Source: a virus
Lineage: Duplodnaviria; Heunggongvirae; Uroviricota; Caudoviricetes
DNA: 10,482 nucleotides
IMG/VR virus record: IMGVR_UViG_2534681701_000011
Reading direction: 5' to 3' (one strand)
Positions 2,223 to 4,664 of this stretch are shown in pieces; positions within the stretch are counted from its first letter, which is position 1, and every line of letters begins with the position of its first letter. The notes beneath the pieces are model-generated. The model searched no databases and was not told the DNA's origin. It saw only the letters and a program-made list of their open reading frames with translations. The translations under genes and the position numbers were made by a program.

Positions 2223-2248
2223 GAGAGATAAACGTTGGTTTGGGGGAA
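2223..2248. other. Left 26 bp crossover site (gix/cix/hix-like) of the invertible segment
   Basis: GAGAGATAAACG-TT-GGTTTGGGGGAA; the inner half-site is identical to that of the right site, and the central dinucleotide TT is compatible with the AA of the right site in inverted orientation. Resembles the recalled hix half-site TTCTTGAAAACC. Confidence 0.6.
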
Positions 2249-2433
2249 GGCTCTGCATTGCCTGTTGGTGTACCGGTTCCATGGCCCACCGCCACACCGC
2301 CAGCAGGCTGGTTAAAGTGCGACGGGCGCGCCTTTACAAAAGAACAATATCCTGTTCTGGCCAGAGTCTACCCGACCCTCCGTCTTCCCGATTTACGCGG
2401 TGAGTTTATCCGTGGATGGGACGACGGGCGCAA
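2235..2433. repeat. Left arm of a perfect 199 bp inverted repeat
   Basis: Direct comparison: 2235-2433 is identical to the reverse complement of 3653-3851; identity breaks at 2434 and 3652. Confidence 0.9.
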
Positions 2434-2752
2434 AGTTGATACAGGACGTAAGTTGCTGTCCGCACAAGGGGCAACGCTGTTAAGAACAGCAATGCTGGAT
2501 TATTATAACCAGGACACTACGGGAACCTCGGGGATAGTCGGCATGGGATTCAACAATGAAGATTCCATTACAGACCTTCGTGAGGGCAGCTTTAAAATGC
2601 CGGACGGGACAACATTCAGCGATCCTGTCGTGGCAATGTCAGACAATGGTATGCAGGCTACTATTCTGACCTCTATCAGAAGCGGGTATGCGAAGGGTAT
2701 CACTGTCAGACCCCGTAGCATTGCACTTAATTACATTGTGAGGGCAGTTTAA
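2240..2752 (+). CDS. Alternative tail-fibre C-terminal cassette (Sv'-like), currently silent; would be fused to the constant part of the fibre gene after inversion
   Basis: No proper start; the frame opens inside the inverted repeat. The first ~65 aa (GEGSALPVGVPVPWPTATPPAGWLKCDGRAFTKEQYPVLARVYPTLRLPDLRGEFIRGWDDGRK) are identical to the corresponding part of the minus-strand fibre gene and then diverge. Ends …SIALNYIVRAV, like the expressed copy (…NIAFNYIVRAA). Confidence 0.75.
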   Translation: MGEGSALPVGVPVPWPTATPPAGWLKCDGRAFTKEQYPVLARVYPTLRLPDLRGEFIRGWDDGRKVDTGRKLLSAQGATLLRTAMLDYYNQDTTGTSGIVGMGFNNEDSITDLREGSFKMPDGTTFSDPVVAMSDNGMQATILTSIRSGYAKGITVRPRSIALNYIVRAV

Positions 2753-3366
2753 TGAGTAACACTGCAGTTCTGGATGAAAACGGTATCGCCACTGTAGCGG
2801 GCGATATCACTGTATATCACTATGACGAGGAAACCCGGGAATACACCTCATCCTCTGTGGAGTATCTCGCCCTTGGGGTGGGTACTCCGGCACATTCGTG
2901 CGCCGATGCACCGCCGGAGGCAATTTCGGGTTACGTGGTTTGCCGGACTGCCACGCTGAACGGGTGGGAGCATGTGCCTGATCACCGCGGCGAGACGGTA
3001 TACAGCACGGAGAACGGTAACCCTGTTCTGATTACCCAACCGGGTGATTACCCGGCGGACACCACCACAAAACAGCCAGCCACGCCATGGGATACCTGGA
3101 ACGGTGAGGCGTGGGTAACCGATACTGAACGGCAGCGAGCCGCAGAACTGGAGGTTGCCAGACAGCAACGCCAGCAACGGGTGAAACAGGCGATGGCGTC
3201 AGTCGATCTTATCAACCTCAAACTGCGTGCTGGTCGCAGTCTGACACCAGAAGAAACGGCAAAACTGAACGCCGTGCTGGATTATATCGACGAGCTGAAC
3301 GCACTGGATATCAGCACGGCACCTGAAATCAGCTGGCCGGAAGCGCCACTGGCACTTGCCAGTTGA
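2752..3366 (+). CDS. Tail-fibre assembly chaperone (lambda Tfa / P2 gpG / Mu U family)
   Basis: 204 aa; motifs WEHVPDHRGETVY, WNGEAWVTDTE and STAPEISWP match the Tfa family as I recall it (e.g. e14 TfaE). Start overlaps the Sv' stop (TAATG). Confidence 0.85.
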   Translation: MSNTAVLDENGIATVAGDITVYHYDEETREYTSSSVEYLALGVGTPAHSCADAPPEAISGYVVCRTATLNGWEHVPDHRGETVYSTENGNPVLITQPGDYPADTTTKQPATPWDTWNGEAWVTDTERQRAAELEVARQQRQQRVKQAMASVDLINLKLRAGRSLTPEETAKLNAVLDYIDELNALDISTAPEISWPEAPLALAS

Positions 3367-3372
3367 ACGGTA

Positions 3373-4664
3373 TCACGCCGCCCTCACGATATAGTTAAAC
3401 GCGATATTGCGGGGGCGGGTTATGTTAAAGAATGCTCCGTTTAATTCGGCTTTTGCGCGACTGTTTGTTCCACCCAGAATTACGTACCACAAATAATCGC
3501 TACGGTAATTCCCCGCAAACACCTTATCGCCGCCATAGTCAATATTATTTCCGTTACTCATGTACGAGATATCAAGCGAAGAATCGTTATCGTCATGACC
3601 GCCGACCAGTGTACCTTTCTGCCATGAAAGCAACTTACGCCCCTCGTCAATCTTGCGCCCGTCGTCCCATCCACGGATAAACTCACCGCGTAAATCGGGA
3701 AGACGGAGGGTCGGGTAGACTCTGGCCAGAACAGGATATTGTTCTTTTGTAAAGGCGCGCCCGTCGCACTTTAACCAGCCTGCTGGCGGTGTGGCGGTGG
3801 GCCATGGAACCGGTACACCAACAGGCAATGCAGAGCCTTCCCCCAAACCAAGGTAATTGAGGACATCTTTTATACTGCCCTTAGCGATAATAGCGCGACC
3901 AATAGCTGTAAGGGTTGCCAGCGCTGCGCGGTCTGCTCCGGTAAAATAAGGCAACCGATCTGCTGCAGTGGCAAGTCCTGCCAGAGCAGTGAGCGTGGCA
4001 TCTGCCGGTTGTTTTCCGTTTGCCAGATCGTATGCAGCCTTGACCGCTTTCGGTGTGGCGGCCAGTATTTCAGACGTGCTGTTGATGGCACTGCTCAGTT
4101 GTACGGTGCCTTTTGCCGTCAGCGAGGCAGCAGGCACTCCCGTTATCTGACTCCACGGGTGAGTGTGGCTGACGGGCGCCTTGCCGGCTGCAAGGTCGTA
4201 TGCAGCCTTGACCGCCTTCGGCGTGGCAGCCTCAGTTTCTGATTGACTGTCCGTGGCGCTGCTCAGTTGTACGGTGCCTTTTGCCGTCAGTGAAGCCGCA
4301 GGCACTCCCGTTATCTGACTCCACGGGTGAGTGTGGCTGGCAGGCGCCTTGCCGGCTGCCAGGTCGTATGCAGCCTTGACCGCTTTTGGTGTGGCGGCCA
4401 GCGTTTCAGAGGTGCTGTTGGTGGCACTGCTCAGTTGGGTGAACCCCTTAGCTGTCAGTGTCGCGTCCGGGTGGTTACGGGAACGTACGTGTTCAGCCAG
4501 TGACTGTGCGGCTTCCTCCGTTTTCTTCTTCAGCCATTTCGTCCTGTTTGCCAGTTGCCGGGGGCTCGATTTGATATCCCGTCTGCACCACCCAGAACCG
4601 GATCTGATGTCTCCAGTTGATAGATATTTTCTTCCCACTTTTCTGTTTCATTCAGGTTTCCCAT
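3373..4664 (-). CDS. Tail-fibre protein (P2 gpH / lambda Stf-like), apparently interrupted by a 1-nt frameshift at a C5 tract near the 5' end
   Basis: Body (RNHPDATLTAKGFTQLSSATNSTSETLAATPKAVKAAYDLA…GKQPADATLTALAGLATAADRLPYFTG…) recalls P2 gpH; C-terminus NIAFNYIVRAA recalls lambda Stf. An ATG at 4664 overlaps the gpI stop (TGATTATG) with GGGAG upstream, and opens a 44-codon frame (MGNLNETEKWEENIYQLETSDPVLGGADGISNRAPGNWQTGRNG*). The long frame continues in +1 from the run at 4560-4564. Confidence 0.8.
3653..3851. repeat. Right arm of the perfect 199 bp inverted repeat
   Basis: Reverse complement of 3653-3851 is identical to 2235-2433. Confidence 0.9.
3838..3863. other. Right 26 bp crossover site (gix/cix/hix-like)
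   Basis: TTCCCCCAAACC-AA-GGTAATTGAGGA; compare the recalled hixL TTCTTGAAAACC-AA-GGTTTTTGATAA. Sits at the outer edge of the right inverted repeat, inside the fibre coding sequence. Confidence 0.6.
4012..4455 (-). repeat. In-frame tandem repeats in the tail-fibre gene: 168 bp (56 aa) unit, about 2.6 copies
   Basis: Protein repeat TAKG(F/T)xQLSSAxxSxSExxAATPKAVKAAYDLAAGKAPxSHTHPWSQITGVPAASL occurs twice in full and once in part. At DNA level GGCACTCCCG starts at 4133 and 4301, and CTGCTCAGTTG at 4091, 4259 and 4427 (period 168). Confidence 0.85.

What the first reader, a model, noticed from the sequence alone, without database searches (positions are those of the whole stretch)
2223..3863. 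Invertase-driven tail-fibre host-range switch with P1-like long inverted repeats
A serine invertase lies next to a 1.6 kb segment bounded by 26 bp hix/gix-like sites (2223-2248 and 3838-3863). Immediately inside the crossover points are perfect 199 bp inverted repeats that encode the shared stretch of two alternative fibre C-termini. Inversion would swap the current fibre tip (3373-3652) for the Sv'-like cassette (2434-2752). Long inverted repeats inside the crossover sites are the P1 C-segment layout rather than the short repeats of Mu G, and perfect identity over 199 bp suggests ongoing inversion or gene conversion.
Basis: partly seen in the sequence, partly recalled or inferred. Interest (0 to 1): 0.7.

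Follow-up and report, generated by a model that had tools for sequence, protein, structure and literature searches.

The report
Invertible tail-fibre switch in Mu-like prophage
This is an ordinary member of the classic Gin/Cin/Pin family of phage DNA-inversion switches: a small recombinase flips a 1.6 kb segment to swap the tip of a prophage tail fibre. Near-identical prophages in public E. coli genomes are found in both orientations.

Summary
An intact 190-aa serine invertase (1596-2168, minus strand) is 71-75 % identical to Cin, Gin and Pin. It lies 54 bp from a 1615-bp segment bounded by two inverted 26-bp gix/cix/pix-type sites (2223-2248 and 3838-3863, cores TT/AA). Perfect 199-bp inverted repeats start at the cores.

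Flipping in silico fuses the constant fibre part in frame to the other tip, followed by the only fibre-assembly gene. The predicted flipped junction occurs at 100 % identity in other complete E. coli genomes. Two strain pairs carry the prophage at one chromosomal site and differ only by this inversion. In one pair the exchange maps to a 20-bp interval holding the core and inner half-site, not to the longer identical stretch further in. That argues for site-specific recombination.

The element is the right end of a BcepMu-like transposable prophage. A homologous module with three tips, one assembly gene and an invertase was shown experimentally to invert in EPEC E2348/69 (Goldberg 2014).

Caveats: the perfect repeat identity reflects gene conversion, not inversion. 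The window's fibre gene carries a 1-bp frameshift (G5 versus G6). One assembly gene serves both tips. Verdict: real, well understood, low novelty.

The parts
1518..1595 (.). Right end of a BcepMu-like transposable prophage. It begins TGATGCGCCGCGCGATAAATGC and repeats the motif GCGATAAATG.
   Evidence: Homology to six related prophages starts exactly at this TG, and the host DNA beyond it differs in every genome. It resembles the Mu right end, TGAAGCGGCGCACGAAAAACGC...CACGATAAATGCG.
1596..2168 (-). Serine DNA invertase of the Gin/Cin/Pin/Hin subfamily, 190 aa, intact, with Ser9 in YIRVSTNDQ
   Evidence: Pfam Resolvase and HTH_7 domains. Gin structures 4m6f and 3uj3 match at E 1e-92. Identity to Gin, Cin and Pin is 73, 71 and 75 %. 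PHROG 125 'DNA invertase'. It differs from WP_000904922.1 of the relatives by one residue, T15I.
2084..2147 (-). Candidate Fis-dependent recombinational enhancer inside the 5' end of the invertase gene. It has two Fis-like cores, at 2133-2147 and 2084-2098.
   Evidence: G-N13-C cores lie at codon-region positions +22 and +71, the same positions as in Mu gin and e14 pin. Both fall inside the interval annotated as the enhancer in P1 cin (+19 to +90). The nearer core centre is about 95 bp from the site core, as in Mu. This is inferred only.
2223..2248 (.). Left 26-bp crossover site, core TT at 2235-2236
   Evidence: It matches e14 pixR at 20 of 26 positions.
2236..3850 (.). Invertible segment, 1615 bp between the core midpoints
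   Evidence: The in-silico flip gives an in-frame fusion. The homologous segments are inverted between C7 and C9 and between AR_0013 and CE10.
2235..2433 (+). Left arm of the perfect 199-bp inverted repeat. It encodes the collar-domain stretch shared by both tips.
2240..2752 (+). Its unique part is 2434-2752.
   Evidence: Collar domain. PHROG 523 'tail collar fiber protein'. It is fused to the constant part in 284 complete genomes.
2752..3366 (+). The only tail-fibre assembly (chaperone) gene, 204 aa. Its start overlaps the stop of tip B (TAATG).
   Evidence: Pfam Caudo_TAP, E 4e-28. PHROG 105.
3373..3851 (-). Currently expressed fibre C-terminus (tip C). Its unique part is 3373-3652.
   Evidence: Collar domain. 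It resembles the T4 gp37 tip, 2xgf, E 1e-15.
3653..3851 (-). Right arm of the perfect 199-bp inverted repeat
3838..3863 (.). Right 26-bp crossover site, core AA at 3850-3851
   Evidence: It matches e14 pixL at 20 of 26 positions and P1 cixR at 19 of 26.
3852..4664 (-). Constant N-terminal part of the tail-fibre gene. It contains 168-bp tandem repeats (4013-4516) and a 1-bp deletion in a G run (4555-4559).
   Evidence: Three Phage_fiber_2 repeats. Tandem repeats. The run is G5 here and G6 in seven relatives. The natural ATG frame stops after 44 codons, and adding one G restores a 430-aa protein.

Best explanation
This is a Gin/Cin/Pin-type site-specific DNA inversion switch. It sits at the right end of a BcepMu-like (Mu-like, transposable) prophage of E. 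coli or Shigella type.

Proposed mechanism: the invertase (1596-2168) binds the two inverted 26-bp sites. Probably with Fis bound to an enhancer inside its own 5' coding region, it cuts at the 2-bp cores (2235-2236 and 3850-3851) and exchanges strands, which flips the 1615-bp segment.

The constant part of the tail-fibre gene lies outside the segment, to the right, on the minus strand. The segment carries two alternative C-terminal receptor-binding tips in opposite orientations. Each starts with the same roughly 66-residue collar-domain stretch, which is what forms the 199-bp inverted repeat. In the orientation seen here the fibre ends in tip C. After inversion it ends in tip B, followed by the tail-fibre assembly gene.

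Relatives carry a third site and a third tip (A), which gives three alternative C-termini.

Shown here: the anatomy, the family membership of the invertase and sites, the in-frame swap, and the natural occurrence of all states, with the crossover mapped to the site in close relatives.

Inferred: Fis and enhancer dependence, activity in this particular strain, and the change of host range.
For: Invertase domains, the catalytic serine and 71-75 % identity to Cin, Gin and Pin.

The two sites are the only matches in the window to a consensus built from gix, cix and pix, with none expected by chance. Their cores are identical and inverted.

The in-silico flip gives an in-frame Sc-tip B fusion followed by tfa. 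The flipped junction occurs at 100 % identity over 611 bp in at least 17 complete genomes. Counting places that cover at least 80 % of each junction query, 284 genomes hold Sc-B, 81 hold Sc-C and 75 hold Sc-A.

Strains C7 and C9 have the prophage at the same insertion site. Over 14,611 bp they differ only by the inversion, and the in-silico flip of C9 equals C7 with 0 differences.

AR_0013 and CE10 carry the same two-cassette layout as the window, at 99.1 % identity, at the same insertion site. After the flip there are 0 differences in 4782-8700. The exchange is confined to a 20-bp interval holding the core and inner half-site. A crossover in the 129-bp identical block further in would leave 14 differences.

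The window's sites are identical to those of AR_0013 and CE10.

A homologous module in EPEC E2348/69 has the same architecture and near-identical sites. Its invertase region is 73 % identical in nucleotides and its repeat arms 73-75 %. It was shown by paired-end sequencing and PCR to exist as coexisting inversion variants (PMC4272514).
Against: No read data are available for this strain, so inversion here is not observed directly.

The window's fibre gene has a 1-bp deletion that truncates the natural reading frame after 44 codons. The switch may therefore be phenotypically silent, unless this is a homopolymer sequencing error.

The invertase differs from the widespread allele by T15I. The effect of that change was not tested.

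Only one tfa gene is present. In the present orientation it is antisense to the fibre operon, unlike Mu, P1 and e14.

The Fis sites rest only on position-matched weak consensus hits inside coding sequence.
Confidence: 0.9

Rival explanations
1. Inversion in this strain is driven mainly by RecA-dependent homologous recombination between the perfect 199-bp inverted repeats. The invertase and sites would be bystanders.
For: 199 bp of perfect identity is an adequate RecA substrate. Homologous exchange between arms clearly occurs. Both arms of the window carry the B-arm sequence of relative C9. Differences from AR_0013 cluster in the arms, 11 of 27 substitutions in 398 bp.
Against: In the AR_0013/CE10 pair the crossover lies in the 20 bp at the site and not in the 129-bp identical block. 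The repeat starts exactly at the core of a site that matches the gix/cix/pix consensus. The invertase is intact and conserved.
Confidence: 0.07
2. The locus is a fossil in this strain. The prophage is defective, so inversion may still happen but changes nothing. The fibre gene is a pseudogene and no host-range switch operates.
For: The G5 versus G6 frameshift truncates the fibre frame after 44 codons, while all seven relatives have G6. The element sits in a rearranged region, beside a rihA fragment cut on one side by the prophage end and on the other by IS1. Relatives AR_0013 and CE10 carry an internal stop in gpW yet still differ by the inversion, so inversion continues in defective prophages.
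Against: Every other tail gene in the window is an intact ORF. A single-base difference in a homopolymer is a common sequencing error. The rest of the prophage lies outside the window.
Confidence: 0.3
3. The perfect identity of the arms is a consensus or polishing artefact from a culture that contained both orientations. Reads from flipped cells would place the other arm's alleles at each position.
For: Among the relatives examined, only the window has perfectly identical arms. The others have exact stretches of 62-129 bp and 92-97 % identity over about 220 bp.
Against: This cannot be tested without reads. Gene conversion explains the same pattern. The artefact would itself imply active inversion.
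Confidence: 0.08

Closest known systems
e14 Pin / P segment of E. coli K-12
   Same: The invertase is 75 % identical. The 26-bp sites are the closest match, at 20 of 26 positions to pixR and to pixL, with the same AA core. The switch also sits in a prophage that is often defective and swaps tail-fibre C-termini.
   Different: e14 has two tips, each with its own assembly gene (stfP-tfaP and stfE-tfaE), and no exact inverted repeat of 20 bp or more. Here there is one tfa and 199-bp perfect arms.
Mu Gin / G segment
   Same: Both are transposable phages with the switch and invertase at the right end, and the invertase reads away from the segment. The invertase is 73 % identical. The spacing from site core to the first Fis-like core is about 95 bp in both.
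   Different: The Mu repeats are 34 bp, the core is GA, the G segment is 3 kb with S/U and S'/U' pairs, and com/mom follow gin. Here the invertase is the last gene, 78 bp from the phage end, and the tips are short collar-domain modules.
P1 Cin / C segment
   Same: Long inverted repeats lie immediately inside the crossover sites and encode a stretch shared by both fibre C-termini. The core is AA and the invertase is 71 % identical.
   Different: The P1 arms are 562 bp exact. cin reads towards the segment and cixL overlaps its 3' end. There are two assembly genes.
Three-repeat invertible module of the P2-like prophage of EPEC E2348/69 (Goldberg et al. 2014, PMC4272514)
   Same: The architecture is the same: a constant fibre part, collar-type tips, a single tfa and an adjacent invertase. 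The sites are TTCCCCCAAACCAAGGTAAT... and TTCCCCCAAACCAACGTTT.... The paper describes both three-tip and simpler two-variant versions. Inversion was proven by paired-end reads and PCR.
   Different: The host phage is P2-like rather than BcepMu-like. The invertase region is 73 % identical in nucleotides and the repeat arms 73-75 %. The window has the two-site form.
Min of plasmid p15B and other multiple-inversion systems
   Same: Relatives of the window have three sites and three alternative fibre C-termini.
   Different: The window itself has only two sites. The comparison with Min rests on my own knowledge, because p15B was not fetched.

Membership tests
Din subfamily of serine recombinases (Gin/Cin/Pin/Hin DNA invertases) | About 190 aa, with an N-terminal resolvase catalytic domain carrying the Ser nucleophile and a C-terminal HTH | tested here: met
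   Resolvase E 6e-51 and HTH_7 E 1e-12. Ser9, Arg7, Asp64, Arg65 and Arg68 are invariant in the alignment with Gin, Cin and Pin.
Din subfamily of serine recombinases (Gin/Cin/Pin/Hin DNA invertases) | Close sequence relationship to Gin, Cin and Pin | tested here: met
   73, 71 and 75 % identity. Gin structures match at E 1e-92, against 5e-33 for gamma-delta resolvase.
Din subfamily of serine recombinases (Gin/Cin/Pin/Hin DNA invertases) | Two 26-bp imperfectly symmetric sites in inverted orientation with identical 2-bp cores | tested here: met
Din subfamily of serine recombinases (Gin/Cin/Pin/Hin DNA invertases) | Fis-bound enhancer within the 5' end of the invertase gene | tested here: inconclusive
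   Two Fis-like cores lie at the same positions as in gin and pin, inside the interval annotated as the enhancer in P1. The sequence is coding, so its conservation is uninformative.
Din subfamily of serine recombinases (Gin/Cin/Pin/Hin DNA invertases) | The segment actually inverts, with exchange at the core | tested here: met
   Met for close relatives with identical sites: C7/C9 and AR_0013/CE10, with the crossover mapped to 20 bp. Not testable for the window's own strain.
Phage tail-fibre inversion switch (Mu G, P1 C, e14 P) | Constant fibre N-terminus outside the segment and alternative C-termini inside it, on opposite strands and in frame after inversion | tested here: met
Phage tail-fibre inversion switch (Mu G, P1 C, e14 P) | Each alternative tip is followed by its own assembly gene (U and U') | tested here: not met
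   There is only one Caudo_TAP gene, 2752-3366. No tfa lies downstream of tip C. The same is true in the relatives and in E2348/69.
Multiple-inversion (three-site) fibre module as in EPEC E2348/69 | Three crossover sites giving three C-termini | tested here: not met
   The window has two sites. Relatives L002 and L007-L009 have three. The window equals those relatives minus cassette A.
Mu-like transposable phage (Bcepmuvirus-like) | The element ends at TG with repeated transposase-site-like motifs, and insertion sites differ between genomes | tested here: met
   and the differing flanking genes. The related phage PhiKM is classified as Bcepmuvirus and encodes a transposase. The left end and the target duplication were not examined.

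The most novel reading that the evidence does not exclude
The single assembly gene flips together with the segment. In the orientation seen here, and in one of the four states of the three-site relatives, it is antisense to the fibre operon. Inversion might therefore control chaperone supply as well as tip identity. Three readings are possible: some states are fibre-OFF states; tips C and A fold without a co-transcribed chaperone; or a rightward promoter in the spacer between the invertase and the site supplies Tfa in exactly those states.
Probability: 0.15. Interest if true: 0.4.

Novelty: new member of a known kind. Interest (0 to 1): 0.15.

Why it matters
It matters little for discovery, because the mechanism has been textbook since Mu, P1 and e14. 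A homologous module with one assembly gene has already been shown to invert in EPEC E2348/69.

It does have practical uses. It explains why PGAP fragments or mis-annotates these fibre genes. It warns that assemblies of such prophages capture one of several coexisting states. It also shows that this module is shared between P2-like and BcepMu-like prophages that are widespread in E. coli, including ST131.

The natural strain pairs found here give unusually clean in-silico evidence that exchange happens at the 26-bp site.

Tried and rejected
Two exact-match scans of species-representative genomes found nothing, so the source strain stays unidentified. One used the rihA-prophage junction and the other the IS1-rihA junction. 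No complete E. coli genome holds the rihA-prophage junction either.

The sigma-70 promoter scan of 1500-4800 found no site, and the terminator-like hits were at chance level. I compared the spacer between invertase and site across the window, E2348/69, Mu and e14, and saw no shared promoter-like element. An idea of an extended -10 (TGAGATAAT at about 2204-2212, plus strand) driving tfa therefore remains pure speculation.

The assembly protein has no solved-structure relative by sequence.

The E2348/69 'Mu' locus is a different, e14-like module. It matches the window only over 93 bp at the 5' end of the invertase gene.

I considered whether the window's two-cassette layout is a one-off deletion. 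I rejected this because the same layout occurs at other insertion sites: AR_0013, AZ184, E300010, CE10 and SCU-101.

I did not run the large protein-database searches or structure predictions. The family assignments were already unambiguous.
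Full report
**Anatomy of the window**

From left to right the window holds the following features.
- A partial IS1 ends at 753 (GGCAGCATCACC).
- A rihA fragment spans 754-1517 and is cut at both ends (Pfam IU_nuc_hydro, profile positions 49-295).
- From 1518 onwards lies the right end of a prophage whose tail genes all read leftwards. They are tape measure, GpU-like, X, D, V, W, J, I and the tail fibre.

Homology to related prophages in six other genomes begins exactly at the TG at 1518, and the host DNA beyond it differs in each genome. 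The terminal sequence TGATGCGCCGCGCGATAAATGC...GTGCGATAAATGG resembles the Mu right end. A related phage record, PhiKM, is classified as Bcepmuvirus. It carries a transposase, Mu-like head genes and these same tail genes. The element is therefore a BcepMu-like transposable prophage, and the finding sits at its extreme right end, where Mu has G and gin.

**Checking the observation**

The repeat is exact over 2235-2433 and 3653-3851 (199 bp), and 96 % identical over 229 bp. Written with the segment side first, they are:
- right site: TTCCCCCAAACC-AA-GGTAATTGAGGA
- left site: TTCCCCCAAACC-AA-CGTTTATCTCTC

I fetched Mu, P1 and e14 and read their sites from the sequences:
- gix: TTCCTGTAAACC-GA-GGTTTTGGATAA
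- cixR: TTCTCTTAAACC-AA-GGTATTGGATAA
- pixR: TTCTCCCAAACC-AA-CGTTTATGAAAA

The window's sites match pix best, at 20 of 26 positions. A degenerate consensus built only from the three reference systems finds exactly these two sites in the window. None is expected in 200 shuffles.

The invertase (1596-2168, minus strand, 190 aa) has the Resolvase and HTH_7 domains. It matches the Gin crystal structures at E 1e-92 and is 73, 71 and 75 % identical to Gin, Cin and Pin. The catalytic Ser9 and the conserved Arg and Asp residues are in place.

**What inversion would do**

The fibre gene reads leftwards. Its constant part (3852-4664) lies outside the segment, and the present C-terminus (tip C, 3373-3851) lies inside it. 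On the other strand the segment carries tip B (2236-2752), followed with a TAATG overlap by the only tail-fibre assembly gene (2752-3366, Caudo_TAP).

Flipping 2236-3850 in silico joins the constant part in frame to tip B, with tfa directly downstream.

Both tips begin with the same phage tail collar domain (Pfam PF07484). They resemble the tips of T4 gp37 and gp12 and end in a similar RPRN/SIAxNYIVRA motif. The 199-bp repeat covers the coding sequence of this shared collar stretch (nt 2267-2410) and its conserved flanks.

**Evidence that the segment really inverts**

The window cannot show this on its own, so I used public complete E. coli genomes.

The as-is right junction (tip C, arm, constant part; 611 bp) is held in one piece by 81 genomes. 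The purely predicted flipped junction (tip B, arm, constant part) is held by 284 genomes. At least 17 of them match at 100 % identity.

Many relatives carry a third site and a third tip (A) between the invertase and tip B. The predicted constant-part-to-tip-A junction is present in 75 genomes, eight of them at 100 %.

Two natural pairs are decisive.
- Strains C7 and C9 are both from water at Lodi and have the prophage at the same site beside lafU. Over 14,611 bp they are identical outside positions 5916-7372. Flipping C9 between the cores of its second and third sites reproduces C7 with zero differences.
- Strains AR_0013 and CE10 carry the two-cassette layout of the window at 99.1 % identity, with identical 26-bp sites. 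Both have the prophage at the same site, truncating an Ail/Lom gene, and they have opposite orientations. After the flip they are identical over 4782-8700.

In the second pair the arms differ from each other at seven positions between 19 and about 70 bp inside the core. That allows the exchange point to be mapped. Any crossover from 1 bp outside to 18 bp inside the core midpoint gives 0 differences. A crossover in the 129-bp identical block further in would give 14. The exchange therefore took place in a 20-bp interval, window 2235-2253 and its mirror, that contains the core and the inner half-site. This is what a Din invertase does. RecA-dependent recombination, which would favour the long identical block, would not give this result.

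**The long repeats**

The longest exact inverted repeats are 34 bp in Mu, 562 bp in P1, under 20 bp in e14 and 199 bp here.

Perfect identity is not a consequence of inversion, because exchange at the core moves the arms without mixing them. Among the relatives examined, the arms are 92-97 % identical with exact stretches of 62-129 bp.

In the window both arms carry exactly the sequence of the B-cassette arm of strain C9. Relative to AR_0013, 11 of the 27 substitutions fall in the 398 bp of the two arms. The window lineage has thus undergone gene conversion between arms. Alternatively, and less likely, the identity is a consensus artefact of a mixed-orientation culture.

**How it probably works**

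By homology, the invertase acts as in Mu, P1 and e14. Two Fis-like G-N13-C cores lie at +22 and +71 of the invertase coding sequence, at the same positions as in gin and pin. Both fall inside the +19 to +90 interval annotated as the enhancer in P1 cin. The nearer core centre is about 95 bp from the site core, as in Mu. This is suggestive only, because the region is coding sequence.

**Departures and caveats**

1. There is one tfa gene for two tips here and for three tips in relatives. In the present orientation it is antisense to the fibre operon. I found no promoter that would supply it. The same layout occurs in E2348/69. It remains unexplained.

2. The window's fibre gene has G5 where seven relatives have G6 (4555-4559). 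The natural ATG at 4664 therefore reads only 44 codons, and adding one G restores a 430-aa fibre. This is either a real pseudogene or a homopolymer error.

3. The invertase differs from the common allele WP_000904922.1 by T15I.

4. Relatives with an internal stop in gpW (AR_0013 and CE10) still differ by the inversion. The switch therefore keeps working in defective prophages, as Pin does in e14.

**Comparison with what is known**

Goldberg et al. 2014 (PMC4272514) detected three invertible prophage loci in EPEC E2348/69 by paired-end sequencing. One is a P2-like prophage with three partially homologous inverted repeats, four coexisting variants confirmed by PCR, and three alternative C-termini. 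They also noted a simpler two-variant version in another prophage.

I fetched the three-repeat locus. It has the same architecture: a fibre, collar-type tips, a single tfa and an adjacent invertase. Its sites are TTCCCCCAAACCAAGGTAATCAAGAA and TTCCCCCAAACCAACGTTTTCGTTTT. Its invertase region is 73 % identical in nucleotides to the window and its repeat arms 73-75 %.

A bioRxiv preprint on ST131 (10.1101/2022.05.07.487787) reports tail-fibre rearrangements in P88-like and phiE255-like (Bcepmuvirus) prophages that encode an invertase. ST131 genomes are among the closest relatives of the window.

**Verdict**

The finding is real and correctly interpreted. It is a further member of a thoroughly known kind.

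Noticed in passing
window 1518-1595: This is the right end of a Mu-like (BcepMu-like) transposable prophage. Homology to relatives starts at TG 1518, the flanking host DNA differs in every genome, and GCGATAAATG motifs resemble Mu attR transposase sites. The invertase is the terminal gene, 78 bp from the end, with no com/mom equivalent.
   Followed up: yes
window 4555-4559: A G5 run where seven related prophages have G6. It frameshifts the tail-fibre gene 35 codons after its natural ATG (4664), with a stop after 44 codons. It is either a pseudogene or a homopolymer sequencing error.
   Followed up: yes
window 1-1517: A partial IS1 ends at 753 and abuts a rihA fragment (754-1517). The fragment is truncated at its 3' end by IS1 and at about codon 46 by the prophage end. 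Neither this junction nor the IS1-rihA junction was found in 5,426 complete E. coli genomes or in the species-representative genomes.
   Followed up: partly
window 4013-4516: Three 168-bp tandem repeats encode 56-aa Phage_fiber_2 units in the constant fibre part. Copy number varies among relatives, giving fibres of 428 to about 667 aa. The only differences between AR_0013 and CE10 lie in these repeats. PGAP splits or marks these genes as partial in several genomes.
   Followed up: partly
L002 6707-8774; L007, L008 and L009 5310-7464: Relatives carry a third crossover site and a third tip (cassette A; its sequence differs between ST131-type L002 and C9-type L008). The window equals these minus cassette A. 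That fits recombination between the directly repeated arms or sites 1 and 2, or gain of a cassette in the others.
   Followed up: partly
window 2752-3366: There is only one tail-fibre assembly gene for two tips here and for three tips in relatives. In the present orientation it is antisense to the fibre operon. How tip C is chaperoned is unexplained.
   Followed up: partly
window 10166-10221 and 10427-10482: A 56-bp direct repeat, 95 % identical and 261 bp apart, inside the tape-measure gene. It is probably an internal protein repeat.
   Followed up: no
PV468777.1 38593-39520 (H28, Entero_P88-like prophage of ST131): A P88-labelled prophage record from ST131 carries the same invertase, left site and start of a tip cassette at 98.7 % identity to window 1518-2445. 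The invertase-site module is therefore shared between prophage types, and several copies per genome are common (median 3-4 matching places per genome).
   Followed up: no
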